DNA of 63,253 nucleotides, the filler included, from Psammoneis japonica (Eukaryota), in assembly GCA_008632985.1 (NCBI GenBank). It is 10 parts of 10 records of this genome, joined end to end, with 100 filler letters (N's around TTAATTAATTAA, not from the genome) between each part and the next. Parts side by side here need not be neighbours in the genome. Positions count along the whole stretch, not along the records: positions 46,814 to 52,295 come from QPGO01000561.1; 9 more parts are not named here. The stretch is one strand, 5' to 3'. A model generated the notes under the pieces. The model made no database searches. It was not told the DNA's origin and saw only the letters and a program-made list of their open reading frames with translations. Both the position numbers and the translations under genes were made by a program. Shown piece after piece: positions 19,532-52,729 of the stretch (position 1 is the first letter of the stretch; each line of letters begins with the position of its first letter).

Positions 19532-19564
<33 letters not shown>

Positions 19565-19585
19565 CTTCCCGTCTTTCCAGTCATG

Positions 19586-19629
<44 letters not shown>

Positions 19630-20699: not shown

Positions 20700-20812
20700 N
20701 NNNNNNNNNNNNNNNNNNNNNNNNNNNNNNNNNNNNNNNNNNNTTAATTAATTAANNNNNNNNNNNNNNNNNNNNNNNNNNNNNNNNNNNNNNNNNNNNG
20801 CCACAGCGCACC

Positions 20813-23800
20813 ATGGGTCAACCCAGTGCCAGCAGGTCCGGCCAACAACGACGCCCGACCGAAAGGATGCGCGAGAGCCAACTGCAACAGGCTCAAGGCA
20901 TGGTCTCCCACAATGCCGAGGCAGAGGCACACCATGATGTGATGCACGAAGATGATTACAAACTGCAGGACAACATGGACTCACCTGTCTCTTTTCTGGC
21001 GAGCTCGGACCCCGACACCATGTGCTTTGACCAGGCCATGCGCGAACCTGACAGAGACGAGTTTGTCAAAGCCTGTGTTAAAGAGGTCAATGATCACATT
21101 GAAAGAAAACATTGGACACTCATCCCAAGAGAGGACGCACCTGATGATGTTGGCGTTCTCCCTTCGGCATGGTCTGTAAAGCGCAAAAGAGATGTCAAGA
21201 CTCAAGCCGTCTGCAAATGGAAGTCCCGACTCAATGTGCGCGGCGGGAAGCAAGAGTGTGCTGTCAACTGCTTCCAGACCTGCTCTGCTGTGGTCTTTTG
21301 GTTCACTGTCTGGCTCCTGCTGATCACAGCCATTCTCAAGAAGTGGCACACACGCCAAGTCGACTTCGTTCTGGCGCATCCGCGTGCTGATGTCGAATGT
21401 GACATGCATGTGGAGTCACCTGCAGGAGTTGAGACAAAATGTGGCAATGGCAAGACTCATGTTCTGAAGTTGCTCAAGAACTTACATGGACAGAAACAGG
21501 CAGGGAGAGCATGGCAAGAACACTTGCGTGATGGATTGTTAAGGATTGGTTTCGTACAATCAGCGGTTGACGAGTGCCTCTGTTTTCGTGGCAATGTCAT
21601 TTTCACCCATTGTGTCGATGACGGCATCTTTGCATCCCCTGACAAGTCTGCTGTTGACAAGGCGATGCAAGATGTCAGAGATGAGAATTTTGACATTGAT
21701 GATCAAGGCACTCTGGACGACTACCTCGGTGTCAACGTCGAGACGCCACCAGACGGCAGAATGAAACTCACCCAACCTCACCTTGTCAATCAGATTCTGG
21801 AGATGGCCAACATTCCCAAGAGACTGCCAAATGAGTCTGCTCCTGCTCCTTCTTCCAAGATCCTCCACAGGCATATGAGTGAGCCTGCTTTCCAAGGGAG
21901 CTTTCATTACCGATCCATCATCGGCAAGCTCAATTTTCTGGAGAAAAGCACTCGACCGGATGTCGCCTACGCGGTGCACCAAGTCGCACGTTTTTCCTCC
22001 GATCCCAAGGTTTCTCACGGTGAAGCCGTACTATGGCTCTGTAAGTACCTAAGGTCAACCAGAACTGAAGGTATTATACTGCAGCCCTCAACGGATAAGT
22101 CCCTTGAAGTTCACGCCGACGCGGACTTTGTGGGCAATTGGAACAAGCTGACAGCACCCGATGACGTCGGCACTTCCAAATCTCGAACTGGGTTTGTCAT
22201 CACCTACGCAGGGTGTCCGATTGTATGGACGTCCAAGCTACAGACTCAGATCGCGCTCAGCACTACTGAAGCTGAATTTATCGCTCTTTCGGAAAGTCTT
22301 CGAAGCGCCATCCCAATTATGAACCTCATTCAAGAGTTTATGAGTCACGGTCATAATGTCCCTTCCAAGACACCAGTCGTACACTGCAAGGCTTTTGAAG
22401 ACAATTCTGGAGCACTGGAGATCGCGAGATTGCCTAAGATGCGTCCTCGGACAAAACACTTCAACCTCACTCTCCACCACTTTAAAGACCATGTTCGCAA
22501 AGGTCTCATATCAATCCTACCAATTGATACGGCAGATCAGATTGCAGACAGTTTCACCAAACCACAGCGGTTTCCGCGCGAGAACGGTGAGCGTGTTTGT
22601 CTGTGAAAAAAAATGTTCGGGTGTGCCAAATCAAACTGGAATTAGGAACTTCTGAATCTTCAAAGTTTTGAAAAAAGCACACTGTCACCGCACAAAAAAA
22701 ATTTGTTGCTCAGAACCGCAGTCACCATGAATCGACAACAGCCGGTTCTACTTCATGTAAACTGCCGACACTGAGGAAAAAAATGAGATATGTTGTCGTT
22801 CATGGCATTGTTGAGGTCACATGTCGTTTTTTCCTTAGTGTAAGATGTTTTGATGTCGTCGTTATCGACATGGTTGACAATGGCGGACGGAATCTCGGTT
22901 GCGCCTTTTTTCGTTGAAATCATCGTAGATTTCTACGTGTGGTTTGTACTGGATTGTCGGAACAAGTTTTCGTCGACTTGTTGTCATCGATCTGACGGTG
23001 GCCTTGTTGATGGTATTTTGACTTGCCTCTCCCAGCATCTCCCATGTTTCAGCTCTCTGTTGTGTCTAACCATCATGCTGTGCAAAATTGTTTCATCTGT
23101 AGAAGCCCAGAGAGAAAAACACAAGATCATTCTTGCCGCTCCTGACGACGAGATTCATGCCACGATGCCGGGACGAACGAGCTTGACTGCAGGGGTGGAT
23201 GAAAAGCCCAGTGTGGACCACACAATGCAGCGCAGTCTTGGCATGCTTGTCAAGACTTGGTGTGATGGCAGTGGAAGTGTTCTGTCGGGATCATCCGAGC
23301 TCAAATTAGCTCAGGCCGCTGTTCTCTGTTAGTTGATGAGAAATGCACCGTCGGGCTGATGCAGCAGGTCGATGATCCAGGTAAGTTCACTTGACAAGTC
23401 TTGTGCATTTAACATCTTGATGGTGTGGGCGATTCTAACAGGTAGAGGCAATGGAAATTGTTTGCTGGGAAGGTCCATTTTTAAACTGCTCATGAGGTCA
23501 AATCCTGCCAGTCGACGCAGGCCATGAACCAACCGACATGCAGTGGCAGGCAATCATCTCTGGCAGTCTGCTGCGGTTGAATCTTACACACACAATGCCT
23601 GGAGTGACAAGTCATGTGCTCAAACTAGCCATCCAGTGCTCCCAAGCATGTTTCCTCGAGCAAAGAGTGGTCGCTGAGGGCTGAGAGGAGGTCTCAGACA
23701 AGCGTTGCTTTGCAAGCAGGGTCCACCAAAGTGCAGCAGAATCTGCTGAAAGAGAAACAATGCCATGTTCACTTTCATTGTGTCCAGTCCTGCCACGGAT

Positions 23801-34561: not shown

Positions 34562-34799
34562 TGTTGTAATTTATCCTTCTGGTGACTATTTCAGAGCCAC
34601 CTCAGTCCTCTAAGGTCTGATCCTGAGGCTAAAATAGACAAGCTTGTTATCACAATGCTTTCTAAGAGTTAAAAGAGAATAATGACTGCTTTCATCGGCA
34701 GCTTCAGTGCCTCACGTAGAGCACATGAGCGCTGGCGCATGCGTCTTCTTCGCGCCATCTAATTTCGGTGTTTGAACTTTTAATTCACCATTTCCAACA
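34562..34799 (-). repeat. 3' LTR (238 bp)
   Basis: Aligns without gaps to 39959-40196 with 8 mismatched positions. Confidence 0.97.
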
Positions 34800-37700
34800 C
34801 ACTCCTGCTGACCAACGACACGATTCTTGCCATTTCCAAATTTGACCATCTCAGGCACTTGGATGTTCATGATGGCTTGACGATCAGAAATGAACTTTTT
34901 ACCAACCACTGGTTTGGTCATGCAATCTGCCATCATCTTGTCTGTTGGGCAGAACTTAATCTCAAGTTCTCCTCGCTTGATGAGGTCAGTGATGTAAAAA
35001 TGCTTGATGTTGAAATGCCTCGTGCGTTTGCCCGAGCTGGCCTTTCCATTTTGTTCTAGTTTCATGCAACTTTGATTGTCTCGATGCATGATGTTGCGCT
35101 CGACTTCAAAACCTTGAGCTTCAACAAAACGCTTGGTCCAAAGGACCTTTTCCAAAACATCGTCTCCTGCGATGATCTCTGCTTCCGTAGAACTCCTGGT
35201 GTTGATCTTCTGCTTCGTGCTGACTGATGCAATGACACCTTTTCCAAGGGTCATGGTAGAACCTGTGTGACTTTTACAGTCCGGATGGACTGCAAATGCG
35301 GCATCCGTGTGCCACTCGATGACAACTTTGTCTCCAGCCGACATGACTGCGACATCAAGCTGGGTTGTCTTGAGGAAATTCATGAGCCTCACCAGCTTTG
35401 GCCAATCTGATTCGCTCAGATCCTTGACCCTGGTAGAGAGAGAAGCAATGCCAGGCTGAATGTCCTGTCTGGCTCTCTTGCACACAAACATGCCCTTCAT
35501 CACAAAAGTGCAAAATGCTTGAGCATGCTTGAGATCTAATTTCTTGGCTGTCTCATCCACCTTGTTGAGCTTCTCGCTCCACGGGCAATCCACGTCACCC
35601 GACAATTCTTCTGGGAATTTCTTGAAGAATTCCTTGACCATTTCTTGCACATGAAGCACCATGTCAACTTGCAATGCTCCTGGAATGGAGCAATCTAGAG
35701 TTATGGCTAGACAGTCATGCCTCTTTCCACGCGTGACTTTGACCTTTCCGATCTCATCCGCACAAGTTTTGTCCAACCAAATCTTGAATTCATCGTTGAC
35801 CTTGCTGTCAACATGGCTAGACTTCAAATCGTCCACATGCCATGTCACCGTGTGTTGTTTTCCATTCACGATGTGGTTGGCGACACATGGATCATGAGGA
35901 CCAATCTCAAATCCGATTCCTTCGATGTCTCTGCGGAACTTCTTGCAACAAAGAATGGAAGACACCAGCATTCCGTAGAGTGCCTTCAACATTTCAACGT
36001 AGAGAACCTTGTGTTTGCCTTCGTGCACGACGCAGTCCTGGCAAGTGTCTGGATCCAATTCCAGCAACATGTCCACCATCCTTCCACTGATCTTCATGAT
36101 GATCTTTTCATCCTTGACCTCGATGTCCGTTTGCACAAATGCATTTGGAATGTCTGCCATCATAACGTCTCTGCCTTGCTTGGCATCAATCACTCCTGCA
36201 ATGAGAACAGATTCTGTTGATGCTGTCGGACTGGCGGTTTCATCTCGGTCCATGCACTCTCGTTGCGTGCTTCCGTTTGCACACAACCTTGACTTGATTC
36301 GTCCATCTCTCTTCTCTGTGAGAAACATGAGGCTCTCCATGGCTCTCTTCCTCTCCAGTGGAGTCATGTCCTTGATGCAAATGGGTTTGAAAACCACTCT
36401 ATCATGGATTTGCTTCAGCTCTGACACTGCCGACTTGTGGCCTTCTTCTCCAAACTTCTGGAGTCCTCGTGCCAAGCTGCAAGTCTGAATAAATTGGTGT
36501 GCTTCTTCATCAGTGGAAATCGTGCTAACCTTTTTGTTCCACTGGCACATTGTCATGGCCATGATTCTGGCCGTCTCTAAGCTGCATGCTTCTTCTTGTG
36601 AATGGGCTTGAGTCTGCAGATGGCATTGGCAGTCTCCCAATCTAACTGGAGGTTTGAGAGTCCTTCCTGCCCTGGATGTAGCAACAGGCTCTTCTTGGAC
36701 ACTTTCTTTGGTTTCACTCTGCTCCTCTCCAGATTCGTCATCAGATTCCAGGTCTTTCATTTCGTCGATGATCTCTTGCACTTCCAGAGAGTGTTCCTTC
36801 TCTTGTTCCAGCCTCTGTTGTTCATCAATGTGGTCAATCATGTCATCGATTTCTTGTGAGATTCCGCTGCCGTCTGATGGTTGAGAACCAACTTCGTCAT
36901 TGTCTCCGAGATGCTCATCATTGGAGGTTTCTTCTTGAGTCTCGTCTTGTTGTTCACTGATGTAGCTGGCTTCTTCATCCAATTCTTGTTCCCGAACTAT
37001 GTCTTGCAGCTCTTCTTGACTAACTCTGTCGCAGTCTCCCCAGCCTAGCTCTTCTTCCTCATCATCTTCAGTTTCAATGTCTTCTTCTAGATCACAATCT
37101 TTGTCTTCAAATTGATCTTCATCACAATCCACTCCTGCAAGCCAAGCACCGTCGCACAAAACAGTTCCAGTGCGGTTCTGAATCTTGAGACCATTGGGCA
37201 TCTTGTTCATTTCAGCCAAATGATGAACCTGCTTTATGATGGCGGGAGTGATGGGCACAGGGGTGACCTTGCGACGAGTGATCTTCTTGCCGGTTTGCAA
37301 GTGCAGCAACTCATGTCCAATCTGGTTGCTGTCGGTGGGGCGCAAACAAATGCAATCCAAGGTCCGTGACTCTTGAGTGTTCTTGGGGTCCGGGTCGTTG
37401 TGAGCTTGCACACAAGTGCCGAACGTGATCTTGCAGCTCTTGTCATAGTCTAGATTCTTTTGATGGAGAATCATTCTTGGACTGCAATGTTTGGAAACGC
37501 CGTGCTTGGCTGGAAAACAATTGAGCTTCTTAGCAGCTTCGGTGACCATGACTTCAACCATGAGTTTTGGTAGATGCTTGAATGGCAGCTGATGATGGAC
37601 TGCCCTGGCACGTTCTTGAATGACTCGGTTGTTTCTTTCGGCTTCTGGGACATGCTCCTGAGCATTTGTGCAGTTCACCTTGAGATCAAACTTGTCTTCT

Positions 37701-39856
37701 AGTGCATTCCCAATGGGCCTGAATTCGTTGTCGCAATGAATGCGTGTGACCTTCAAATCGGCCTTGTTGTAGACTCGCAGCACATCTTCCAGAGCTTCTT
37801 GATGAGTTGGTTGGGTCAAGTCCTTGAGCGGTTGTGCCGTGTGATAAAAAATGTTTCGTGACACTGTGGTGAGGAATGGCAATCCATTCACCTTGAGGCC
37901 ATCCAGGCAAAGAGTGACCTTGTGCTGTGCTGCAATGAGCTCCTTCGGGATCTCTGTGCAGTCTTCTACAACTGGGTCTGGCTTCTGCCTTGTTGCCTTG
38001 CCTTTTCGACTTCCAATGTCTGGTCCAAAAATCTTCTCGGCCAAATCTACGTCCTCCATTGTGATGGGATTGTTCTTGATGCTGTTCATGCGAATGATGG
38101 CCTTCAGATCGTTCACGGTTGGGTTTCCCAACGCTTGCAATGGTTCCCCAGCCCTCTTGGCTTTCTTGAACTGTCGTGGAGTGTAGAACTTCTTGTTCTC
38201 TTCCACACTCTGCACAAATTGGAGCTGAGCTCCAGTGTCATTAATCTTGGGCTTGTAAACGTGCAGCCCTTTTCCGTCCTCCTCGAACCCAACCTTCTTG
38301 TTGGGGAGATGAACGGTGAATGCGTTGTCTTGCTTAGAATCACTTGTGATTCTGTGCTTCTTCTTCATGTCAGAGCAAGCAAAAATGTTGGTGATTGCAT
38401 CTGGGTTAAACCAAGTCTCACCAAACCCTGGCACTGTGGCCTTGTGTGTCGTGACCAGGACTCCGCCATTGGTGTGCAAACGCATGGCTTCATCCGACGG
38501 ACGGATGTCTGCAACGAGCTTCTCATTGCAGAAGATTGTGGTTGTGGACTGGTTGTCCAATAAAATCCAGTCTCTCATGCTGCCAGATTGATCCTGGTAG
38601 AGAGATGCATCGATGTGCGTGCCAGCCCATCCTGAAACAGCAGATTTTGTTCCAGTGGATTCTTTGGCAGAAGAGTTGGCTGCACTGGCATCGTCACTTG
38701 CTTGAGCGTTGCTTGCTTCTTGCTTGGCTTTGGCCTTGTTGATGGCCCATTCTGCTTGAGGTTTTCCTTTCCTTTCCCAGCAATTTTTGGAATTGTGTCC
38801 AGCCTTGCCACAGCAGCAACACTTGCCTTCTAACTGAGCGAAGGACAGCGCAATTTCTTGGTTTTCTTCTTGTTTCTTGGAGTCAGAGTTGTTGTTTCGA
38901 TTGTTCCTGTTACGGTGGTTGTCAGGCTGACCAACGTAGTCAAAAGTGTGGTTGCTCAACACCGTGTTGGCTTCCGTAACAGACTTGGGATGTTGGTCGT
39001 TCTTGAGGGACTGCTGAGTGTTCAATCCTGTTAGAATTGATCCGCACTTGCACTGATCTGCATTCTCCAAGTGCATGTAACCCATCAATTGGCTGAATGC
39101 CTTTTCTTGACACTTCTTGATGGCATCCGCATTGTGCTCGTCACATTCTGACATGCCTTGCACTGCCTTGGTGAGGACAATTGGTCCTCCAATGTGAGAC
39201 TTCATGATGTCCCTTGCAACCCTGAATCTCTTGGTGCAATCTTGGAGACTCTCCTTCTCCTTCTGCTTGGTTTCTAGCACTGCTCTCATTGAATCTGAGA
39301 TGATGGCCATGTCATGCCTGTGCTCTTGGCAGTTCAATGCATGCTCCTTAATGGCCTTGAGCAACTCGACAGGATCGTTTTCAATTTTGGCTTGGAAGTC
39401 GGTTCTTGCTTGAATCTTGTTCTTCATGGCCTTGGAGCATCTCTCCCAGAGCAAAGCACAAGCCTTGACAAGGTTGTTCTCATGAGTTTGGGTCCTCTTA
39501 ATGTGAGCATCAAATTCTGTCTTGAACTCAATTTCATGCTGTTTGTTCAATGGCACGTCCACCTTGTCATCTCCAGTCAAGCTGACCTGCAAAGTCGGCT
39601 TCTTAGAACTCATGTCACATGGAGTGAAAGTGTTGAGTGCAGTTGCAATGTCATTTCCAAACTCATGAGTCTTCTTGATGTAGTTGATGATGAACTCAGC
39701 AGCAATCTGAAAATCAGATGCTTGCTTGGCACTTCCAACATGATGGACATGATCATTGATGCCCTTGTTGCTTTGCTTGCCACTCTTGTTGCCCCTTCCT
39801 GAGGGTCCTCTTCCTTGGCTTCTATTGCCATTTCTGCCTTTGCCTCTTCCACTCAT
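34712..39856 (-). CDS. Copia gag-pol polyprotein, open but heavily Tyr-to-Cys/His substituted
   Basis: Zn knuckle CCCCGKAGHNSKNC, protease WILLDNQST, integrase IHCDNEF and HVPEAERNNR, RT ADIPNAFVQ and TWHVDD, RNase H WHTDAAFAVH and SSTEAE. The first ATG is at 39856. Confidence 0.93.
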   Translation of the reverse strand: MSGRGKGRNGNRSQGRGPSGRGNKSGKQSNKGINDHVHHVGSAKQASDFQIAAEFIINYIKKTHEFGNDIATALNTFTPCDMSSKKPTLQVSLTGDDKVDVPLNKQHEIEFKTEFDAHIKRTQTHENNLVKACALLWERCSKAMKNKIQARTDFQAKIENDPVELLKAIKEHALNCQEHRHDMAIISDSMRAVLETKQKEKESLQDCTKRFRVARDIMKSHIGGPIVLTKAVQGMSECDEHNADAIKKCQEKAFSQLMGYMHLENADQCKCGSILTGLNTQQSLKNDQHPKSVTEANTVLSNHTFDYVGQPDNHRNRNNRNNNSDSKKQEENQEIALSFAQLEGKCCCCGKAGHNSKNCWERKGKPQAEWAINKAKAKQEASNAQASDDASAANSSAKESTGTKSAVSGWAGTHIDASLYQDQSGSMRDWILLDNQSTTTIFCNEKLVADIRPSDEAMRLHTNGGVLVTTHKATVPGFGETWFNPDAITNIFACSDMKKKHRITSDSKQDNAFTVHLPNKKVGFEEDGKGLHVYKPKINDTGAQLQFVQSVEENKKFYTPRQFKKAKRAGEPLQALGNPTVNDLKAIIRMNSIKNNPITMEDVDLAEKIFGPDIGSRKGKATRQKPDPVVEDCTEIPKELIAAQHKVTLCLDGLKVNGLPFLTTVSRNIFYHTAQPLKDLTQPTHQEALEDVLRVYNKADLKVTRIHCDNEFRPIGNALEDKFDLKVNCTNAQEHVPEAERNNRVIQERARAVHHQLPFKHLPKLMVEVMVTEAAKKLNCFPAKHGVSKHCSPRMILHQKNLDYDKSCKITFGTCVQAHNDPDPKNTQESRTLDCICLRPTDSNQIGHELLHLQTGKKITRRKVTPVPITPAIIKQVHHLAEMNKMPNGLKIQNRTGTVLCDGAWLAGVDCDEDQFEDKDCDLEEDIETEDDEEEELGWGDCDRVSQEELQDIVREQELDEEASYISEQQDETQEETSNDEHLGDNDEVGSQPSDGSGISQEIDDMIDHIDEQQRLEQEKEHSLEVQEIIDEMKDLESDDESGEEQSETKESVQEEPVATSRAGRTLKPPVRLGDCQCHLQTQAHSQEEACSLETARIMAMTMCQWNKKVSTISTDEEAHQFIQTCSLARGLQKFGEEGHKSAVSELKQIHDRVVFKPICIKDMTPLERKRAMESLMFLTEKRDGRIKSRLCANGSTQRECMDRDETASPTASTESVLIAGVIDAKQGRDVMMADIPNAFVQTDIEVKDEKIIMKISGRMVDMLLELDPDTCQDCVVHEGKHKVLYVEMLKALYGMLVSSILCCKKFRRDIEGIGFEIGPHDPCVANHIVNGKQHTVTWHVDDLKSSHVDSKVNDEFKIWLDKTCADEIGKVKVTRGKRHDCLAITLDCSIPGALQVDMVLHVQEMVKEFFKKFPEELSGDVDCPWSEKLNKVDETAKKLDLKHAQAFCTFVMKGMFVCKRARQDIQPGIASLSTRVKDLSESDWPKLVRLMNFLKTTQLDVAVMSAGDKVVIEWHTDAAFAVHPDCKSHTGSTMTLGKGVIASVSTKQKINTRSSTEAEIIAGDDVLEKVLWTKRFVEAQGFEVERNIMHRDNQSCMKLEQNGKASSGKRTRHFNIKHFYITDLIKRGELEIKFCPTDKMMADCMTKPVVGKKFISDRQAIMNIQVPEMVKFGNGKNRVVGQQECVGNGELKVQTPKLDGAKKTHAPALMCST

Positions 39857-39958
39857 GACAAAAAGGCAAAGCAGCAAAACATCTCACACACCGTGTGGAT
39901 GACTCTTTTCTTTCTCACTTTCTTTTCACAGCTCTCAGCTGGATTGTTCTCTTTCAAC

Positions 39959-40196
39959 TGTTGTAATTTATCCTTCTGGCAACCATTTCAGAGCCACCTC
40001 AGTCCTCTAAGGTCTGATCCTGAGGCTAAAATAGACAAGCTTGTCATCACAATGCTTTCTAAGAGTCAAAAGAGAATGATGACTGCTTTCATCGGCAGTT
40101 TCAGTGCCTCACGTAGAGCACATGAGCACTGGCGCATGCGTCTTCTTCGCGCCATCTAATTTCGGTGTTTGAACTTTTAATTCACCATTTCCAACA
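39959..40196 (-). repeat. 5' LTR (238 bp)
   Basis: Partner of 34562-34799. Confidence 0.97.
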
Positions 40197-41423: not shown

Positions 41424-44400
41424 TGCAGCATGCAGTATGCGACTGTTATATGCATATTCATAATTATATATTATTTATATATCAATCGTACCACAGTCGT
41501 GGATGCGTACAAAGGACAGAACGATCACACAGAGTTGAAAATTGCAAATACGATCGATTGACGATGTTGACATCTTACGTGTCAATAGCAATCGTATTCG
41601 GACAATCTGTTGTCACGAATATATTCTCCGAAAGGCCTTTTGTCTGCAGAAGCAGTGCAGAAACTTTAGGCCATTGAGAACTCGTTCGGAGAAACCAAAA
41701 ATCACAGAGCAAAATTTAATCTCATAATTTTCACTTTTCATACTTGATTCTACTTTTGTTCATGCTCGTTCTTCGAGCATGGTGCATTGTGTGTACACAC
41801 CACAGAAGGTAAAAACACGGAAAATGAAAATTTTAACTAATGTGCCTTTGTAAATTCTTCCATGAGCAGGTGTGAAATGCTTCAGTTCTGCTGGAATCAA
41901 TTTCTGAGCGGAAGCAGCTCAATCTGAGCAGTACCTCAAGATGGAACCTTATTTTTCGTCTACAAGACAAGAGGATTTGTTCTAATACGATCCATTCCAA
42001 GTGTCCCAGGACCAAGGACTGTACAAGAGCACAGCATTATCGAAGTGTCCACACCAAGTCATGGTTGGATAGAATTTCAAGTCTTGAGTCGATCAGGTCC
42101 GAGAAATACATCTACTGTTCAAGGAGAGACTATTGGAGAGTTTTATGAGACCAAATTGATGAGCCTCGAGTCCAAAGGGCAGGAAGGAACCATTGGAAAG
42201 TACCTCAAGAGTCTCTTATCTCATGTCTTTCCAAGAATTGCACTTCAGAATCAGAACCATTATTTTCAAGATGATCTGAAGAAACCAGAGCTGCTTAGTC
42301 TAACAGCAAGAAAGCCTCTGTTGGACCCAAGAGGTCAATGAAGAGCGTCCACATGACCCTTCAATTGATTCTAAGTTGAATCTAGCGGGAAACCGAGCCG
42401 TGAGCTATCAGCTATCACTCGCACCGCAAGGATGGCAGCATCAGCCTACTGTCCAAAACACTGAACTGTTGGAACTTACCTTTGACGAGCTGATTGAGTT
42501 TTGAGTCGTCTAGAAGTCGTTCATGACGTCTATGACAATGAACCATATCAAATCAGGCTCTGATAGCGGAATTGATTCCAAAACCAAAATGGTTCCAAAT
42601 TTGGTTCCAAAAATGGTCTCCTGTATGGTGCCTGAATAATCCAAAGTGAACAAAAGGTGCAATCTTTGAAAAAAGAACACCTGCATCACGGATTGAAGCT
42701 ATTCTGAAAATGAACTAGTGAAAGAACGCCGTGGACACATTGAGCGTGATCCGAAATGGCGCTGTTCAAATGGCAATCGCACGTGGCATCGCGATGACGA
42801 AAATGCCGCTCGCAAAAAGGAGTTGAACGTCATGAATGATCAGACAGTTCAAAAAAAAAAACTCAAAGCGAGTTCCTCGAACAAAGAAAAAGAGCATAAG
42901 GGCAAAGAATTGGATTCTGATGCCCTCAGTGAAGAAAATTACCAATTTGATCGGATGATCCAGAGTGAATCCGAGGAATAATTTGGGTCTATTCAAGAAT
43001 TATATGCTCTACTGGATATTAGGAAGCCTAGAAAAAAGGCAGAAATAATTCGTGCTAGTCCAGGAGTCATCATTTATATGAACACTTCCTTGGGAAAGGA
43101 GAGAAAAAAGCATCTACGTGTTCCTATCGACAACGGAACATCGTCAACCACAATTTTGCGCAAATTTGTGCGAAAGTTGAGAACACAAGAATCCGCCACC
43201 AAAAACTTGGAAAACCAAGGGTGAGCTCTTTACGACTGACAGTAAATGCCGAATTCAGTTCTCACTGTGCGAATTTAAGACATGCTGATGTTCAAACAGC
43301 ACATGTTGACAACAACAATTCTTCTTCAAGTCCATGTGATGTGATCATGAGACGCGACTTAATGTCCAGTCTTGAAATCACAGTGGACTTGCAAATGAAG
43401 AAATCAAAAAGGAAGAAGCAACTGCATCTATGAAGAATGTTGATCCACTCTTCGAAACCGATGTTTCCAGCGACGTCGTGAATAGAGTTAATGACGGAAC
43501 CAATGGTCCTCGACTCACATTGTCTCACGCTGCTAATCTCAACAATGTGACAGCTGCGGCAACTTATCTGACTCCAGAGGAGCAGAAGCTATTGATCTTC
43601 CCTTTGAAAAGATTTAAATCTCTTTTCGATGGTTCTCTAGGCGAGTGAATCGGAAAACCTCGCAGTGAAAGCTGGCTCGAAACCGCATCACGCGAAAGGT
43701 TTCCTGTTTCCACAAGCCTTGGAGGCAACTCGTAAGGAGATTGAAAGGCTCTGTAAGCTAAAAGTCCTAAAGGAAAATAAACTGTTCTGAATGGACAGCT
43801 CCAACCTTTAAAAAATAGAAAAATGGTCGAAGCTCGGTTTCTGTCCGACTTTCGTGAACTGAATAAGAGGCCAGCACGCATGCCGTATCCTCCACCAAAT
43901 ATTCAGAACACACTTCAGAAACTAGAAGGGTTCATATATATGACCTTACTCAATTTGAATGTGGGACACTGTCACATCAAATTTAAAAAGCACATGTCGT
44001 GCCAACACGAAAATCATGCCGTGGGGAGAAAATAAGTGCTATGGACTTCCTATGAGAAGCTATAGAGCCCCAGATATTTTTAAACAACACATGAGTGAAC
44101 TCATAACAGGTTTGAAGTTGTCAGAACGACTGTATATGATCATTTATGCCTGACAAAAAGTGACTTCAAAATATCACCTGTACAAGTGACAGCTTAATAC
44201 GGCATTCAAACGACTAGAACAGTTGCTTAGAAGGTTAACAACAAAAGTCCTTCACTGTTTAACTTGAAATAAACTATGAAGACTTCCATGCATAACGACA
44301 TGCATTCGATTACAAAGAAAATGGAGGTGATTCAAACAATCGCAACACGAGAAAAACGTAAAGAACACTACGACATCTCATCGTTATATGTCACTGCTAT

Positions 44401-46348
44401 CGAGACATGTAGTCTCAACGATCTCCTGTACAATGCTAGCCAGATTCACCTCAATGAAGGTCAAATGGCAAAAGTACAAGTACGGAATGAAAAGTCTCCG
44501 AAAATATGGAGCGTATCAAATCAAAAACTATGTTGTTGTCATACACGAATTTCAACATTATACGTTACAACGGAAAAAAGAACTTCTGTCCATATTGAAA
44601 ACACTTATAAAATTCCGAAATATGCTGTTTGGCCAACAGATTAATATACACACGGATTATAAGACACAACGGACAAAGTCATACGTTGGTGACTTACAAT
44701 AGAAAACTTCAGTCCCGAAATATAAAATGCATCGAGGGCAAGGCGAATGTCATCGCGATACTGTCGATCGACACGATCAGCCGACTTACTATAAAAAAAA
44801 TTGAATCCTACAACAATGTCCTACCGTTAAAACGGGATAAAGACATTTCCCTCCAAATTGTCGGACGCGACACATCATACGAACACTTTTCGTGGAGGCG
44901 AGCGAGATCTAAAAATGCTCATGTCATAAGGATAAAATCGCCTTATTAAATTACGGTTAGAAAAAAACTCTGTGACAGATTGGTACACGACATTACAGCA
45001 CCCACTTCACACTGGCAAAAGACAATCTCACAAACACCCGTACGGTTGTACTGTACAATGTATGAGGCAAGACATAAATAACTTATCATGTCGACACACG
45101 AGATGTGCCAAAGATTCAGAAAAAAAGAAAAGAAAAATGGACATTTATCCACTAGTGCACGAAAGCAGTGCCTTCGGAATGACAAAATGACACTGGCATG
45201 TCAGAAAGAAACGTCCAAATAACGATTAAAATCCAACTGATAGATGGTTGAAGTACAAAAAATCCATAATGGAATTCATAACCATCACAGGATTGATTGT
45301 CAAGACGAAATGGTCATATCCTTGACCATCGTTAATTACCACTTAAGAAACGTGGTAGTGCAGCAGAGCAATGTAGCACATGATATGAAGTGAGCCCACC
45401 AAACTGCACGAAATCCACAAGCAAGTAAGTGAACGCCAATTAAGAGCGTACACATCGAGTGCTGGGCAAAATGCTATGTACAATCGACACCATGAAAGAA
45501 CAGCAGGACAATTGGTCCTTGTGTTCACATGAATAAAAGAACGTCAGAGAGAATGCTTGACGCAATACCACATATATAGAGAGAGAGCATGAGACAAAAG
45601 ACATGCTGGAACATTATCAGCAGTAGCATTTGCAGTACGTTCTACGTATCATACTACTGCGCAAGCTACACCTGGACAATTAGTCTTCAGAGACATAACA
45701 TTTAACATCCAACATGTCACAGACTGGAAATTCATCCAGCAGCGCAAACAAAAAATCATAAATAAAAATAACGCTTGAGAAAATACTCGATGTACTCCTT
45801 ACATGTACAGAATAGGAGAAAAGACACTGCTCAAGAAAGACTTGCAGAAAATGGAACGGCCCTATGCTGGCCTATATATATAAAACAATGACAGTCATTG
45901 CTAATGGCACAATGCAGTTGACGTGGAGACATTGTTGACACTGTCAATGTCCTTCGAATTATTCCACTTAACGAATAACTCTAATGTGCAATTAGGGAGG
46001 CAAATGCAGCATGCGACTGTTATAGGCATATTCATAATTATGTGTTATTTACATGTCAATCGTACCACCGTCATGGATGCGTACAAAGGACAGAATGATC
46101 ACACAGAGTTGATCGGATGTCGAAAATTGCAAATACGATCGATTGACGATGTTGACATCTTACGTGTCAATAGCAATCGTATTCAGACAATCTGTTGTCA
46201 CGAATATATTCTCCGAAAGGCCTTTTGTCTGTAGAAGCAGTGCAGAAACTTTAGGCCATTGAGAACTCGTTCGGAGAAACCGAAAATCACAGAGCAAAAT
46301 TTAATCTCATAATTTTCACTTTTCATACTTGATTCTACTTTCGTTTAT
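41424..46348 (+). mobile_element. Decayed Ty3/Gypsy LTR retrotransposon
   Basis: Direct repeats of about 330 bp (about 41430-41763 and 46005-46348) with the PPT AGGGAGGCAAA before the second. Fragments occur in PR-RT-RH-IN order: IDNGTS; RFLSDFRELNKR..PYP..LQKLEGF; KELLSILKTL..FRNMLFG..HTDY; AFAVRSTYHTT..ATPGQLVF. Many frameshifts. Confidence 0.9.
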
Positions 46349-47849
46349 TCGTGCCCTATGTATGTACTAAGCGCTGAAAAAGAAGATGTGTTATGACTTT
46401 GTCGTTGTGAAAATTATGAGCTAGTTTAGAGTAGAGAAAATGGGATCGTGCGAATAGGGAATCTTGCCAAATCCCTATTCGTTCGCATTTGGATCGTATC
46501 AAATCGATCGTGCGTTCGCATTATGGATCGTGCGAATCAAGCCATCACGCGCTATGCACGAGTGATGTCATCGTGTGGAATCACGCTACCATCGTGGGCC
46601 AGACGACGGGCTAGTGTGCTTCACACGGATGCTCTCTTAGCATCCTTCTGGAATTGCCTAAGACCTAGAGCCACGCCCTCCTGTGGTCGTGCTTCCCAGG
46701 TACGTGTTAACAANNNNNNNNNNNNNNNNNNNNNNNNNNNNNNNNNNNNNNNNNNNNTTAATTAATTAANNNNNNNNNNNNNNNNNNNNNNNNNNNNNNN
46801 NNNNNNNNNNNNNAAGGACCAATGTGATGGATCTGCACACCTCCTGTGCAGCCCTCCAGTCACCCAAAGTCACTCTCTTTTCATTGTGTGACACCAGCAT
46901 AAACAGGAGGGAGAGGCTGGCACAGCACATGCAAAACTTGGCAACATCAAATCATCCTTTCCACTGCAGTGCACCCCCAGTGAGGAGCTTTTTGCTGCTG
47001 AAACAAAAATGTTGCTGCAGCAAGAGTTGGTCCAGCAGTGCAGGGTCAGCTGACTCAAGCAGGGCTTGGGCAAAAATGTGAGCTTTGTGCCTCAAAGCTG
47101 TGGCAATCTCCTTTGCCCCTTTTGTCACAGTGCTGCCTCTGCACATTTCTTTGTGGAGGGTTGTTCTCCTTTGGTTTTGGCCAATTGCATGTGGGTGTGA
47201 CATGTGCAGCTGGCAAAATGTGGGAACAGCTGCAGAACGTGGATTTTGCAGGTTTGAAAAGCTGGTGGCTCACTCTGCGTGTGCTGTGTGTGAGTCAAAT
47301 TTTCTTCTGTGGGCTTGTTGCATGATTTGGAGGGAGCCCTCATGCTTCTCGCATGCAGCTGGCAACTGGCAACATGGGAGAACAGCTGCAGAATGTGGGT
47401 TTTGCAGGTTTGAAAAGCTGGCATTTCACTTCATCTGGGACGCCAATAATCTGGGTCTGACAGTCTGCCACAATCTGGGCATTTGTTGACTTCAATCCCA
47501 GATTATTGTCAACTTATGAGCCAAGTCTTTCCCCAAAGATAACATGAGAACTACATGAGTTTATAAGCTTCTAAAGCCTGAATCGCTTCCCACTTTTAAG
47601 TGTGATCATTCTTTGCACACAATGGTGACCTACACCCCAATTGACATTTGTGGTTTCTTGTTCCTTAAACACATTTGTTTCCACTTATAATCCACACTCC
47701 TTGTCTGCCATTTCATCCTACATTTCATCTCTTTGCCATGTTGTTTTCAAATCCAAATGTCCAACTGCCACACGTTTTTGTATCTAAACCGCTTTGCAGA
47801 AAGTTTTTTTTTCATTTTTCCAGATTTTATCGTTTGCTGCAATTTACTT

Positions 47850-48986
47850 TTACACACCAGTTTGGTTGGTTGCCATGGCAGCAATTGCTCCCGCTCCGTT
47901 GCCGGCTGCCACTGCCTGCAATGGCAGGTCCTCACCCATCGGCACTGCCCATCCTTCCTCTCTCTCCTTTCTCTTTTCCTCTCTTTTGCGTTTCTTGTTT
48001 TCCTCCCTAGACAAGTTTGTCTTCTCTTGCCTTCTCTCCTTGAACCATGCACCAAATCCATGGTTGTTCTCTCTGTCTTTCACCACCCACTGACACAGAT
48101 CATTGCACTTCTTGATCCCATCCTTGCTCCATCCTTGGTTCCTCTTCACCGATTCCCCCGCTGCCTGTGCTGTGCACTTTGCAGGAGCAGCATCTTGCAC
48201 CGTCAGCTTCCTTCTCCTTGCAATGTTGTCTTCCTTTTCCAACTTCTCTGCCGTGTCCATCACCTTGTTGCAGTGGTTCAAGTGCACTGGCAGAGCAAAT
48301 GCCTCCGACAAAATGGAAAGCCACTCTTGGAGCATGTTGGTTGTGCTTCTACCAAACTGTGCTTGTCCCACCACCATTGGCACCACAGTTTCCAAGAACC
48401 ATGCACATGTGTCCTTGTCAGCTCTTCCCTTTGTCAAATCTTTGTACTCCACCAGTGATCCCTCTAAAGCAGCAACTGCACAGATAAAATCAAAGGCAGT
48501 GACACTCATCCCATTGGACAATCTCCTCCAACACAATTGAAGGCACGCACACAGCTGCTCACCTGTCATTCTCCTCCTAATGTTGTCCTGCACATTGTTC
48601 CTCTTGCGGTTGAGTTTGGTTCTGAACACCTCTTTGCATTCTTCCCAGAACGCCTCCGGCAAAGACACCATGCTCCTCAACTCCTGCAGAACTGTTTTCA
48701 TGCAATCTTCTCCTGCGGCCAGTTCTCGGTCGAAGATTGTGAACTGGCAATGTGGCCAAACACTTTCATTGATTGCCTTTGTCAGCATTGATCCTGTCAA
48801 TTTCTTGCCCACCGCTGGTGCATGATCCAACACAAGACATCCCTCCATGGGAGTCACCACAGAACTTGAATCCCCCCCATGCACTGGAATCTGTTTAATT
48901 CCCCATGTTCGTTTCTTTGTGCATTGAACAAGGCTGCCACCGCAGGACTCATGGTGACTTTGCGTGACACCACACAGGTAAATCAC
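47850..48986 (-). pseudogene. Repeat-associated hypothetical protein (SEAFAL...GWSKDG motif), with a probable GT-AG intron near 48563-48478
   Basis: 378-aa open frame with LSEAFAL..LN, KCT and GWSKDGIKKCNDLC..V.KDR. I associate this pattern with DNA-transposon accessory ORFs from recall, not from a search. The DNA is TpA-depleted. Confidence 0.5.
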
Positions 48987-49635
48987 AGGTCGTTAGTTCA
49001 CCAGCAACTCTTTGTCATGCCCTTTCTCAACCTGACTTACCACTCGACGTTTCACTTCCTCCCTCTGTCACTCCTGTTACAACTGTCTCCTCCATCTTTT
49101 TGTCCTTCCCAATGGCTGCTCCTTGTTTTGAACTTCCATCCTTTCCTGCTGATTTATGAACAGGTGATGTGCGAAATGAAGGCACTTTGCATGTGATTTT
49201 CTCTGTTTTGTCATTGCTCGCGTATCCTCTCTTGATTCAAACAGGTGTTTGTATCAATTTTGAGTGCTCATTTCCAACCCCATGTTTGAATTTCTATCAA
49301 TCTTCCACTGTTTTGAATTGTGCACCTTTGTGAGCCAATCCAATCCCTCAATGAAGATCACAATGTGTTTTTAAATCAATGTCAAAAACAACATGTCTTT
49401 TGTTCTTGTCTTTGTGCATGCATTGTGCCTGTTTCCTGACACAACATCAGTTTCATTTGGTTTAAAAAATTGTGTCAAACCCCCTGTTCTTTCACACAAA
49501 TCTGTGTCTCTCACTGCCCTTGTTTATCCAATCATGTCTTAATCGATCATTCCCTCAACTTCCCTGATGCCATCTCTCTCCAACTCCTCTCTGTGTCACC
49601 CAAACTGATCCAGTCCCCCTTTTAATGTCGCATGT

Positions 49636-50544
49636 GTGTGTGCACATGGGAACGCATCCATCCACAATTCCACACATTCTCTTTTGCTCCTCCAATGGTG
49701 CCAAAGCATCACATTGTCACTAAGATGTGGTTGTTGTGAATCGTTCCCATCACAGGAATGCGCGTTCCCTGCATTGCAGCAATGTGCCACCCCCATCGAT
49801 GATCAAATGGGTCGTGTTGCTGGTGGCGGTGTGGAATCACATGGTGGTGCAGCAAGCTTTGCCTTCTCCGATGAGGTTTTTTGTCACCCCGTTCTCTTTG
49901 CTGCTCACACTCGAAGCCCTTTTAACATCATCGACATTGGTGGTGGTTGTGCCGGTTTTGCAATTGCCTGTTGTTTGCTTGTTCCTTCCTGCAATGCCTG
50001 CAGCATTGAGTCACACCATCCTTGTCATGATTTGGGCTCTGAGTGGTGTCGTGCTGTCTGGCCCAACTTGCCCGGTTGTTGTCCTACCCTGATCAATCAG
50101 GATTTCCTCTCTGAAGATGATTCAGTTCACCGTTTGTACCATCAGAATAACACAAAGATTTTCTTCAACAATTTCAATGGGTGGATGCTTTTTGATGACA
50201 TTGGGACACAGAACCAACTCGAGGAGACACTGTCCAACAAGTGTCCTGAAGGTGCCATCGTCATTTCACTGGACGTGATGTTTTGTGGGCACACCCACAA
50301 ATGGAGGCATGCAGCATTTTTTGTTCCTGCCTGTCCAGACAATCTATCATGGGGAGGCGGTGTCAACAGGCACCTGCTTCACAAGTGCACCAAGAAAAGA
50401 GATGGCACTGTCGAGCCAAGGCATTCCACTAGGAACAACCCAGGGACTGACATCAAACGAAAGTTCAAGCCTTCCAAAAGTTGGCAGCTTGGTGCTGTCC
50501 TTTTCCTTAACTTTTTTCTATGCAAGCAATGCAATGTCAATTAG
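49636..50544 (+). pseudogene. DOT1-like class I SAM-dependent methyltransferase ORF, hypermutated
   Basis: Ordered motifs ESHGGAASF, IIDIGGG, SIE, QDFLSED, TKIFFNNF and QLEE...EGAIVIS parallel the DOT1 motifs YGE, DLGSG, GVE, GDFLSEE, VIFVNNF and EGGRIVS. Confidence 0.65.
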
Positions 50545-52729
50545 CCATTTACACCAATTTACTTCCTGCCTTTACCAGCTTACAACTTAGCTAGTTTTGC
50601 AGTCCAACAAATTCTTGTTCGTGCGCTTGCCATGTCAAAATTATGTGCCAGACATGCCATGTTCCTTCAATCCAAATTGGTTTTGTCAGGCAAAGCATGG
50701 TGCAGCATTCTTGCATCAAAATCAAATGCAGTGCCTGCTTCTCCCACCAGCAATTGTTTTTCCAAACCCAACCCAACCAAGAGTCTTTTGTGTTCTTTCT
50801 CATTCAACGTTACCTGGCAACCATCCAGCCTTGTCTTGATGGCACCATTGTCCTCCGTTGTGTCATCAAGGAACAGAAACACTGTGAAAATTTTGTTTCC
50901 TGGAAACAATTCTGTTTCCATGTAATCGCAATGAATTTCCCCCTTTGACCAGAAGTTGGACCTTGAACTTGAAGCAGGAGCATTTGCTGCCATGTGCCTG
51001 CTTGTCTCTTTCTGTCTAAATCATCAGCCATGGGAAAGCCAGGAATTAAGTCCAACATTTTTTCTGCCAACTCAATGCCCTCCGCCTTGTCCTTTTTGTT
51101 AATGGCAAACTCTCTGACAAAACGGTGTCCTTCCTTTTCTTGTTTGCTGCTTGGTGCCTTGTTTGCAAGAGCAGCAATTTGTTTGAGCAAGGGTTGTGGG
51201 GTTTTGAATTTTTGCAAGTGGCCTTTTTTCCCTTCCTGATGCAAACTTTCTTTGCACCTGGCCGCCTTCCTCTTGACGACATGTGATTTCACTTCATGCA
51301 GGTGGGTTGGCAACTTGCCATGTTTCCGACATGAGGTTGTCGGCCAATGTGCAAATTTCCTGCATCCATCAACAGAACACTTTCACACCATTCTCTGAAC
51401 ATGCGGAATTCTGCCAAATCAAATGGGACTTAGTCTGTTCATCATGCAGAACGCACCCAATTCAGCGAACGACCTCGGCTGTTTCTTTCCCATGCAATCT
51501 GTGTTGCACACGGCATCTGTCGGGTGCATGGCAGACATTTCTTTTGTAAACAGTCCCATGTGTTATGATCTTTGACCATCTTTTTTCCTTGGTGTTTTCA
51601 TTCAATTGGTGATCCTGGCTGCCTCAAAGCTTAGACACACCTTTGCTTCCACACTGTCATGTCATGGTTGTGGTGTGTCCCTTTGTTTTCAACACCGCCC
51701 CTGACACAAAGGAACAGTCACTGTCCCATGTTCATTCCGCACTCATTGAGATTATGGTGTACAATGAACATGCGCAAATCACACATTTGTCTGTCAACCA
51801 ATCATTTTGGTGTCAATTTTTTATGAATTCACACAATGAGAGCATCTCATGCATTTGTCTTGCAACAAATCAATTTGGCAGCACTTTTTTATAAATGCAA
51901 TGAACAAAAGCCTTTACATTGTTGTGATGTGTTGTCAATCTCCCGCAGCAAACAGCATCCTCACAATTCTGGTCCAATCACTGATCAACGAATGTTGGTC
52001 AGTTGTCGGACACTGTTGGGGCATCGTCATCTCTCTTTTCCATGATGTGCCATTCCCTGTGTGAAACAACAACCTCATCATGATCCCACCCTGTAGAATG
52101 CTTGCCAACCCGTTGCAAAACGGCTGCCTCACCTGTTGTGCCATGTTGCCGCAATGCAACCAACGAATCTCATTTTCCTCCAACACATCGCACTTCTTTC
52201 CTCTGATGTCCTTCCACCCAACACAACCTGGTGTTGCTTTGCCACTGCCATGTCACACAAAAGCATCGACAACTGTTCCATGTGGCCTTTGCCCCNNNNN
52301 NNNNNNNNNNNNNNNNNNNNNNNNNNNNNNNNNNNNNNNTTAATTAATTAANNNNNNNNNNNNNNNNNNNNNNNNNNNNNNNNNNNNNNNNNNNNAACGA
52401 CGACGACGTTTTGGTACAAACACGTTGTTGTTTCCTGGCATTTAACGTGAAACCACTGACAGGGAAACTCGACTCTGATTTGAAACGAGCATACAAGTTA
52501 AGTTGTAGACTACAGTAGCATGCACGCCACACGCCAGCTATCACCGGATGCTACTGTAGCTCATACCGGTAGTGGAGGTCTGTTGATGGTTCCGTTTAGT
52601 TCATTTTGCCGTTCTGCGATCTGCTATGGGTCCCAACGCCATGCTTCCACGTGTAATCACAAACCCCATTTTTTACTTTTTACCAAAATGGGTCGGAAGC
52701 AGAGGGTTGCGTTAGGCACAGAGCTGTGA

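What the first reader, a model, noticed from the sequence alone, without database searches (positions are those of the whole stretch)
49636..50544. DOT1-like histone methyltransferase ORF inside a hypermutated, transposon-like block
Seen: six motifs in DOT1 order (ESHG, DIGGG, SIE, QDFLSED, IFFNNF, EGAIVIS), divergent from a repeat-associated ORF (47850-48986) in a TpA-depleted contig. The HG fits a YG-to-HG change. Established: DOT1 enzymes methylate H3K79, a mark that opposes silencing in yeast and animals. Inference: a large DNA transposon may carry a chromatin-modifying anti-silencing cargo, which was itself mutated.
Basis: partly seen in the sequence, partly recalled or inferred. Interest (0 to 1): 0.7.

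Follow-up and report, generated by a model that had tools for sequence, protein, structure and literature searches.

The report
Transposon-borne DOT1-like methyltransferase, dead copy
A large cut-and-paste transposon in an alga carries its own gene for a DOT1-type protein methyltransferase, and an unrelated rolling-circle transposon in the same genome carries a relative of that gene, which suggests a chromatin-modifying tool useful to mobile DNA, although this copy is broken.

Summary
The ORF is a real DOT1-family methyltransferase: a profile of relatives ranks 18 DOT1 chains first in the PDB, and its predicted fold matches Dot1 best. It is cargo of a Plavaka (CACTA-related) DNA transposon of up to 14.8 kb, with CATCT...AGATG ends, mostly 2-bp target duplications and a PhyH-type dioxygenase gene next door. 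About 48 loci carry this form; a 35%-identical relative rides on a 14-kb Helitron with TET/JBP- and SET-like genes. Earlier notes of this scan describe that Helitron on other DNA of this genome; I found none on the Plavaka element. Both families are riddled with TpA-to-TpG/CpA changes. The window copy is dead (start codon lost, 2-bp insertion, conserved Arg and Tyr changed). Substrate and anti-silencing role are untested: H3K79 methylation is repressive in brown algae, and one DOT1-like enzyme is known to spare histones. I found no paper on DOT1 as transposon cargo.

The parts
46814..52295 (.). The contig that holds the finding (G000:C563, 5,482 bp), bounded by artificial linkers at 46714-46813 and 52296-52395
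47432..47451 (+). Left terminal inverted repeat of the Plavaka-type element (about 20 bp, imperfect, begins CATCT)
   Evidence: Homology with all other copies starts here; seven run contigs have unlike loose ends before 47432
47432..52295 (+). Left 4.9 kb of the transposon (family A); the transposase and right end lie beyond the contig end. Other copies are 6.5-14.8 kb between both ends
   Evidence: 78-89% DNA identity to other copies over the whole stretch
47850..48992 (-). Accessory ORF1, divergent from the DOT1-like gene, function unknown, present in nearly all copies
   Evidence: no Pfam or NCBIfam hit
49736..50487 (+). DOT1-like methyltransferase gene, inferred true extent of about 250 codons. 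Start codon reads GTG here (ATG in 1 of 12 aligned copies). The end is inferred from stops at the matching codon in 3 of 12 copies; the open frame runs on to 50544
49790..49791 (+). Private 2-bp insertion in a C run that shifts the first 18 codons out of frame
   Evidence: absent from 11 of 11 other aligned copies
49834..49845 (+). ESHG(G): the clade's version of DOT1 motif X; the His is ancestral
49933..49947 (+). Motif I, DIGGG (SAM-binding loop)
50002..50025 (+). Motif II Glu and the clade's near-invariant Arg, here changed to Cys (codon 50023-50025)
   Evidence: Arg in 55 of 57 outside homologues; CGT in 8 of 12 aligned copies
50158..50175 (+). Motif IV, IFFNNF, aligning with human DOT1L FVNNF
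50344..50397 (+). Motif VIII (LSW) and the last strand HKCTKK, where outside homologues have Tyr-Lys-Tyr
   Evidence: Tyr in 39 of 57 and 54 of 57 outside homologues at the two places
50640..51382 (-). PhyH-type 2-oxoglutarate/Fe(II) dioxygenase gene, convergent with the DOT1-like gene (His-x-Asp at 50933-50925, distal His at 50702-50700). Broken here by a frame change near 51010 and a TGA at 50669-50667; its 5' part extends further
   Evidence: PF05721 over the curated cut-off in 4 of 4 other copies tested whole; window frames

Best explanation
The ORF is a decayed copy of a small (about 250 aa) DOT1-family, SAM-dependent protein-lysine methyltransferase. It travels as an accessory gene on a Plavaka DNA transposon of a diatom-like alga, beside a PhyH-type dioxygenase (shown; about 0.95). 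A relative of the same clade rides on an unrelated Helitron with TET/JBP- and SET-like genes (shown). The host attacks both families with TpA-to-TpG/CpA mutation plus CpG decay, and this killed the window copy (mutation pattern shown; that it is a host defence is inferred). Most likely mechanism (inferred): in an intact element the enzyme enters the nucleus through its basic tail and methylates a nucleosome core lysine, probably H3K79, without needing H2B ubiquitin, as trypanosome DOT1A/B do. It would thereby set the chromatin state of the element in the element's favour, together with the dioxygenase. I put a nucleosomal substrate at about 0.5, and a net benefit through escape from silencing at about 0.4.
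For: Family: 18 top PDB rows are DOT1 (E 7e-12 to 1.2e-10; first other row 7e-8). Model pLDDT 88.5; all listed Foldseek ranks to 31 are DOT1; VIA best is yeast Dot1p, Z 19.1, rmsd 3.4, 196 aligned. ESM Atlas top cluster is DOT1, commonest taxon Bacillariophyta. 16 of 69 outside homologues hit PF08123 at E<=0.01, 11 at or over the cut-off. Cargo: inverted ends and 2-bp duplications in 7 of 9 two-ended copies, 3-bp in 1. PF18759 is over the cut-off in the transposase next to the C37 copy. 23 of 48 family-A loci have a convergent transposase piece within 17 kb, 0.15 expected by chance. Helitron: Helitron_like_N and PIF1, Tet_JBP lead, weak SET hit (E 0.047). Long-term constraint: families A and B share 74-79 of 205 residues with codon-position identity 0.55/0.59/0.36 (protein-guided alignment, so biased). 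Motif VI is Gx6D, aligning with the Asp of trypanosome DOT1A, which PMC10951340 links to ubiquitin-independent nucleosome binding. Host H3 has the target lysine context. Precedent for such cargo: PMC12730594 and 10.1101/2025.02.11.637652.
Against: No activity or expression data. Motif X is SHGG(E/A), not VYGE; the Glu that PMC10951340 calls essential in human and yeast enzymes is Ala in family A and is kept in only 9 of 57 outside homologues. The N-terminal helical domain of Dot1p/DOT1L is missing, and a DOT1-like bacterial enzyme of similar size does not methylate histones (10.64898/2026.01.11.698932). H3K79 methylation is linked to repression in brown algae (PMC13076208, PMC7784034) and varies in sign among protists (10.1101/2025.03.17.643675). 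I could not establish that diatoms have H3K79 methylation (no main-text mention in PMC4504042; figures and supplements not seen). No purifying selection is detectable between two subfamilies of family A (codon positions 7/6/8, 5 synonymous and 12 non-synonymous, p=0.4). Every copy seen is heavily mutated, so the cargo did not protect them. Transposon context of homologues in other organisms is not shown.
Confidence: 0.45

Rival explanations
1. The enzyme is a DOT1-fold lysine methyltransferase for a non-histone protein, for example a host silencing or mutator factor, or the element's own transposase.
For: Non-canonical motif X and no N-terminal helical domain; the bacterial DOT1-like chain 9NE1 is the best PDB hit of the own-copy profile (E 0.0034) and second in VIA (Z 17.1); the paper on LpDot1 reports non-histone substrates (10.64898/2026.01.11.698932, passages).
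Against: Trypanosome DOT1A/B are equally small, lack motif X altogether and still methylate H3K76 (PMC10951340, passages); trypanosome DOT1A is the top hit of the wider profile; in the Helitron the gene sits with SET- and TET-like genes.
Confidence: 0.25
2. The enzyme works with the neighbouring 2-oxoglutarate dioxygenase in a two-step modification of DNA or RNA bases that shields the element.
For: Both carriers pair it with a 2OG/Fe dioxygenase, PhyH type in the Plavaka element and TET/JBP type in the Helitron; some Atlas look-alike clusters are viral; an RNA methyltransferase scores Z 17.0.
Against: The two dioxygenases are of different families; sequence motifs IV and VIII are those of DOT1 lysine enzymes.
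Confidence: 0.12
3. Passive cargo: a gene captured once, swapped between elements by recombination and carried without benefit.
For: No selection signal on the one recent branch tested; many copies are internally deleted or frameshifted; PMC12730594 calls TET/JBP transfer between fungal transposons frequent but passive.
Against: The two carriers' genes differ at about 63% of residues yet keep every core motif, with third positions near saturation; the clade lies apart from the host's DOT1-like genes, so capture is old and retention long.
Confidence: 0.13
4. The cargo promotes a repressive mark (H3K79 methylation as in brown algae), so that elements damp their own activity or hide in heterochromatin.
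For: H3K79me2 goes with low expression and repeats in Ectocarpus and other brown algae (PMC7784034, PMC13076208, passages).
Against: Its partner in the Helitron is TET/JBP-like, a class proposed to lift silencing (PMC12730594). This reading shares the substrate with the best explanation and differs only in sign.
Confidence: 0.05

Closest known systems
Fungal PlavakaB transposons, some with TET/JBP genes (PMC12730594; passages read)
   Same: Plavaka transposase (PF18759), CATC... termini, 2- or 3-bp target duplications, a 2OG/Fe dioxygenase as cargo; cargo shared between Plavaka and Helitron lineages
   Different: Algal host; ends CATCT...AGATG rather than CATCA...TGATG; dioxygenase of PhyH type; DOT1-like gene not mentioned in the passages read
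Giant red algal Plavaka elements with accessory genes PAG1-3 (10.1101/2025.02.11.637652; passages read)
   Same: Giant Plavaka with several accessory genes including a methyltransferase and a 2OG oxygenase; accessory genes move between transposon families
   Different: Their methyltransferase gene has N6-adenine and SET domains, not DOT1; homology of PAG1/PAG3 to the ORFs here was not tested
Kinetoplastid DOT1A/DOT1B (PDB 8FJM; PMC10951340, passages read)
   Same: Minimal DOT1 enzyme under 300 aa, motif X replaced, motif VI Gx6D; top hit of the profile
   Different: Host genes with proven H3K76 activity and a CAKS loop; here SHGG and transposon-borne
Yeast Dot1p and human DOT1L
   Same: Fold (Z 19.1 and 15.5), motifs I, II, III, IV (NNF) and VIII (SW)
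   Different: No N-terminal helical domain, no VYGE, 15-20% identity
Bacterial DOT1-like enzyme LpDot1 (10.64898/2026.01.11.698932; abstract and passages); PDB 9NE1 is titled a bacterial DOT1L
   Same: Small horizontally mobile DOT1 fold
   Different: Bacterial, methylates non-histone proteins
TpA hypermutation in Bigelowiella natans (10.64898/2026.01.13.699255; first fifth and passages read)
   Same: T/A to C/G transitions confined to TpA in foreign DNA
   Different: Measured there in integrated viruses of a rhizarian; here seen in transposon copies of a diatom-like alga, together with CpG decay; the paper has no occurrence of 'diatom'

Membership tests
DOT1 methyltransferases | Class I SAM fold closest to Dot1/DOT1L | tested here: met
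DOT1 methyltransferases | Sequence profile homology to DOT1 (PF08123, PDB chains) | tested here: met
   Through homologues and profile. The window ORF alone has no hit; 1 of 24 own copies hits PF08123 weakly, E 0.016
DOT1 methyltransferases | Motifs I (DLGSGxG), II (GxE), III, IV (NNF) and VIII (VSWT), as defined in PMC10951340 | tested here: met
   DIGGGxG/A, SIE, DFL, FNNF, LSW; last Gly of motif I and Gly of motif II vary
DOT1 methyltransferases | Canonical motif X (VYGE) and motif VI (Gx6K) | tested here: not met
   SHGG(E/A) and Gx6D; kinetoplastid members also depart at both motifs (PMC10951340), so this excludes the canonical yeast/animal type only
DOT1 methyltransferases | Methylates H3K79 on nucleosomes | not testable with these tools
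   needs an assay
Plavaka (CMC/CMCT) DNA transposons | Plavaka transposase | tested here: met
   PF18759 over cut-off at C37:437587 and below cut-off (E 3e-4) at C267:68234, both family-A elements; hmmscan of the C129 ORF gave no Plavaka hit; the transposase lies outside the window's contig
Plavaka (CMC/CMCT) DNA transposons | CA...TG termini with inverted repeats | tested here: met
   CATCT...AGATG, about 20 bp, in 9 two-ended copies
Plavaka (CMC/CMCT) DNA transposons | 2- or 3-bp target-site duplication (PlavakaB) | tested here: met
   2 bp in 7 of 9, 3 bp in 1 of 9, none in 1 of 9; not testable for the window copy
Plavaka (CMC/CMCT) DNA transposons | Placement within PlavakaB in a transposase tree | not tested
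   no reference transposases on hand
PhyH-type 2OG/Fe(II) dioxygenase (neighbour gene) | PF05721 over cut-off; His-x-Asp...His...Arg | tested here: met
   4 of 4 whole domains over cut-off; Asp is Asn in 2 of those 4
PhyH-type 2OG/Fe(II) dioxygenase (neighbour gene) | Double-stranded beta-helix fold | tested here: inconclusive
   model failed, pLDDT 32
Helitron (second carrier) | Rep-helicase ORF, no terminal inverted repeats, 3' hairpin | tested here: met
   PF14214 and PF05970 over cut-off; ends; Helitron1 versus Helitron2 not tested
Endogenous virus | Viral hallmark genes or relatives in viral contigs | tested here: inconclusive
   No viral hallmark seen in the ORFs scanned; four scans of viral contigs found no relative, with low sensitivity; two central ORFs of the full element have no family

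The most novel reading that the evidence does not exclude
An unnamed 'SHGG' clade of DOT1 enzymes is a mobile chromatin-writer module of diatom DNA transposons. It is exchanged between unrelated superfamilies (Plavaka and Helitron), is paired with a 2OG dioxygenase in both, and acts as a counter-defence against host silencing or against the TpA mutator that destroys repeats in these genomes.
Probability: 0.3. Interest if true: 0.85.

Novelty: new variant of a known kind. Interest (0 to 1): 0.62.

Why it matters
Transposons that carry TET/JBP, SET or other modifying enzymes are known, but my searches found no report of a DOT1-family writer as transposon cargo. Its presence on two unrelated superfamilies in one genome suggests a reusable tool in the conflict between mobile DNA and host chromatin. 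It gives a direct way to ask what H3K79 methylation does in stramenopiles, where the mark appears repressive and DOT1 genes have expanded. Intact natural homologues exist in public data and can be assayed. The copies also record a TpA-directed mutation process so far measured in a rhizarian alga, here in a different lineage.

Tried and rejected
Single-sequence searches of the window ORF found nothing in Pfam, PDB or the 5.8-billion protein set; hypermutation hides it. YG-to-HG was rejected. Recent capture of a host DOT1 gene is unlikely: ten PF08123 matches elsewhere in the genome have ordinary TpA (0.44-0.61) and CpG, and the eight put in the tree fall apart from the transposon clade; that tree is the quick version with long branches and support of 69-84, so it is only suggestive. 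Selection between the window+C57 subfamily and ten other copies: no signal in the DOT1 core; the dioxygenase rows of that test were not in a verified frame and are disregarded. No RNA holder listed; the one run laid was DNA contigs, possibly the source sample. The single metagenome scan gave one 6.1-kb contig (L070) with a distant homologue and no recognisable transposase; its neighbours did not match Pfam or the TET-like profile. Four viral scans were blank. The dioxygenase had no homologue among longer proteins, no PDB sequence hit and a failed model. PDB profile searches for the Helitron's TET-like and SET-like ORFs gave nothing significant. Literature searches for DOT1 as cargo: 'DOT1, transposon, diatom', 'DOT1, Helitron', 'DOT1, transposon, accessory gene' (0 papers), 'DOT1-like, transposable element, cargo, methyltransferase, anti-silencing' and 'Plavaka, transposon'; none listed such a report. 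The library lacks most subscription journals, bioRxiv supplements are closed (the curated element table of 10.1101/2025.02.11.637652 and the fusion table of 10.1101/2021.11.30.470311 could bear on this), and Repbase was not searchable. No complex prediction was run, since no binding claim is made.

Full report
Setting. The window is not one locus. It is a string of contigs joined by an identical linker, and the finding lies on a 5,482-bp contig, w46814-52295, which is G000:C563. A plastid-type ferredoxin-NADP reductase on another contig, a eukaryotic histone H3 and the named relatives of the ORF (Cyclotella, Bacillariaceae) point to a diatom-like alga. This is an inference about the lineage only.

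The observation. The frame 49609-50544 is open and holds the six motifs in the stated order. TpA is depleted across the contig (0.14-0.26 of expectation). The ORF alone has no hit in Pfam, the PDB or the large protein set, but the ESM Atlas ranks DOT1 clusters first (score 0.96).

It is a DOT1-family protein. A profile of 24 copies from this genome found 69 proteins at E<=0.001 among 1.84 billion; one, a sushi-repeat protein, is a false hit. Sixteen of the 69 hit PF08123 at E<=0.01 and 11 reach the cut-off. An alignment of 7 own copies and 57 of these homologues (the sushi protein, short fragments and one long protein left out) ranks 18 DOT1 chains first in the PDB, E 7e-12 to 1.2e-10, with the first other chain at 7e-8. 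The window protein folds with pLDDT 88.5. Foldseek lists only DOT1 structures down to rank 31, and VIA ranks yeast Dot1p first (Z 19.1, rmsd 3.4, 196 aligned), then a bacterial DOT1-like chain (17.1) and an RNA methyltransferase (17.0). Against the motif definitions in PMC10951340 (passages read), motifs I, II, III, IV and VIII are present, motif X is SHGG(E/A) instead of VYGE, and motif VI is Gx6D as in trypanosome DOT1A. The protein is minimal, about 250 residues with a basic tail.

The His is ancestral. It is His in 44 of 57 outside homologues and in 37 of 37 motif matches among this genome's copies. True Tyr columns behave differently: the last strand is Tyr-Lys-Tyr in outside homologues (39 and 54 of 57) and its second Tyr is split between Cys and His among copies.

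The carrier. A search of the genome gave 118 matches. I entered 88 of these rows, dropping by eye those that repeated a place; they merge into 87 loci, 48 of the window's type (family A, 48-100% identity) and 39 more distant. These are lower bounds. Family A homology begins at w47432 and runs to the contig end. Nine copies with both ends measure 6.5-14.8 kb, end in imperfect inverted repeats of about 20 bp (CATCT...AGATG), and are flanked by a 2-bp duplication in 7, a 3-bp duplication in 1 and none in 1. The long ORF at the far end has the layout of a Plavaka transposase and hits PF18759 over the cut-off in the C37 copy and below it in C267; hmmscan of the C129 ORF missed it. Using 33 of the 59 transposase rows (at least 43% identity, repeats dropped), 23 of 48 family-A loci have a convergent transposase piece within 17 kb, against 0.15 expected. 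These features match PlavakaB as described in PMC12730594 (passages read). Gene order from the left end is ORF1 (-), DOT1-like (+), dioxygenase (-), further ORFs without family, transposase (-). The dioxygenase domain passes the PhyH cut-off in 4 of 4 copies tested whole.

A second carrier. Thirteen of the 39 distant loci, all with 33-37% identity, proved to be one 14-kb family at about 86-96% DNA identity. It has no terminal inverted repeats, a Rep-helicase ORF (PF14214, PF05970), a TET/JBP-like ORF (Atlas score 0.96, Tet_JBP on 16-36% of cluster members), a weak SET-like ORF (E 0.047) and the DOT1-like gene. Four other distant loci were examined: C28 is a decayed relative of family A with the same layout, and C27, C117 and C5 stay unassigned. 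The remaining 22 were not read. Earlier notes of this scan describe the Helitron on other pieces of this genome; I found it independently before the look-up. No note matched the window protein or the Plavaka wording. The two carriers share no DNA similarity by blastn. Their DOT1-like genes keep 74-79 of 205 residues, with identity of 0.55, 0.59 and 0.36 at the three codon positions (the alignment is protein-guided, which inflates this contrast). The genome also has ordinary DOT1-like genes with normal dinucleotide content, which lie apart from the transposon clade in a weak quick tree.

Mutation. Tyr makes up 0.04% of 2,255 codons in 11 family-A copies and 0.28% of 1,800 in 9 Helitron copies, against 3.5% in 17 outside homologues. 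Where one copy keeps TA, the alternative is TG or CA in 37 of 41 cases in family A and 21 of 21 in family B; over five whole Helitron copies TG and CA give 492 of 508 substituted states among the ten commonest listed. CpG decay contributes too: columns that mix TG and CA more often hold a CG than a TA (27 versus 3 in family A). The TpA pattern matches the hypermutation reported for Bigelowiella natans (10.64898/2026.01.13.699255; first part and passages read). The window copy is dead. Its start codon reads GTG, with ATG left in 1 of 12 aligned copies; it has a private 2-bp insertion at w49790; the near-invariant Arg is Cys; and its dioxygenase has a frame change and a stop.

How it most likely works. 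Shown: a DOT1-family enzyme gene carried by two unrelated DNA transposon superfamilies, in each beside a 2OG/Fe dioxygenase. Inferred: the intact enzyme methylated a lysine in the nucleus, most likely on the nucleosome core at H3K79, in the ubiquitin-independent way of the small trypanosome enzymes, and this favoured the element. I give the nucleosomal substrate about 0.5 and the whole reading 0.45. Against it: motif X is not canonical and its Glu is Ala in family A; a bacterial DOT1-like enzyme spares histones (10.64898/2026.01.11.698932; abstract and passages); H3K79 methylation goes with repression in brown algae (PMC13076208, PMC7784034; passages) and varies among protists (10.1101/2025.03.17.643675; passages); I could not confirm the mark in diatoms (PMC4504042 and PMC12070036, term searches only); no selection is visible between two family-A subfamilies (7/6/8 changes by codon position); and all copies seen were mutated regardless.

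Comparison and novelty. Transposons with chromatin- or DNA-modifying cargo are a known kind: TET/JBP on eleven fungal lineages including Plavaka and Helitron (PMC12730594), adenine-methylase/SET and 2OG-oxygenase genes on red algal Plavaka elements (10.1101/2025.02.11.637652; passages), and SET fusions with transposons and DOT1 homologues in giant viruses (10.1101/2021.11.30.470311; passages). Five searches listed no report of DOT1 as transposon cargo, within a library that lacks most subscription journals and with preprint supplements closed. The finding is a new variant of a known kind. Whether the clade is transposon-borne outside this genome is open: the one outside contig read shows no transposase, though two near-identical outside proteins differ by Tyr-to-Cys/His changes, which hints at repeated, mutated copies elsewhere. 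Verdict: real feature, right family, right context, wrong detail on His-Gly, function untested; interest 0.62.

Noticed in passing
whole window; linkers such as 46714-46813: Nine identical N44-12 bp-N44 linkers join unrelated contigs of falling length, so neighbours across a linker are not real neighbours.
   Followed up: yes
G000 Helitron copies at C18, C83, C9, C32, C41: The TpA mutator has a flanking preference: for example the A of TTAC is changed 72 times against 7 on the opposite strand, and no ATAT column keeps a TA (counts are conditioned on columns where one copy keeps TA). This could help identify the enzyme.
   Followed up: partly
proteins P0004, P0005, P0006, P0071: Close outside relatives of about 610 aa, two from diatoms by their labels, have the DOT1-like domain fused to a second methyltransferase-like domain with an EFGAGKG loop.
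   Followed up: no
proteins P0085 and P0086; L070: Two near-identical homologues from another organism differ by Tyr-to-Cys/His changes, suggesting the same TpA process there; L070 has TpA at 0.23-0.53 of expectation.
   Followed up: partly
L091:8363-9808, L092:3-1567 (C129 element, central part): Full-length Plavaka copies carry about 3 kb of further ORFs on the + strand with no Pfam family.
   Followed up: partly
window 51400-52295 and matching parts of other copies: The region upstream of the dioxygenase domain encodes a repeated Cys/His-rich unit that may be a DNA-binding part of the same protein.
   Followed up: no
window 34562-40196 and 20756-22606: A Copia-type retrotransposon with 238-bp terminal repeats (97% alike) and a 1,723-codon ORF, also TpA-depleted; a second RVT_2 fragment at 20756.
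   Followed up: no
window 8500-10760: Five diverged tandem units of about 460 bp with normal TpA and CpG; nature unknown.
   Followed up: no
window 41430-41763 and 46004-46348: Direct repeats of about 340 bp (92-97% alike) 4.6 kb apart around AT-richer DNA with little TpA loss; possibly a young LTR-type element.
   Followed up: no
window 1834-2132 and 2812-4400: A 23-bp satellite in two opposed arrays, almost free of TpA.
   Followed up: no
window 17025-17741 and 18940-19890: Ordinary genes: a cysteine/cysteamine dioxygenase (PCO_ADO) and a plastid-type ferredoxin-NADP reductase.
   Followed up: no
L068 (G000:C27:13039), L111 (C5), L112 (C117): Further decayed DOT1-like genes of the same clade whose carrier was not identified.
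   Followed up: partly
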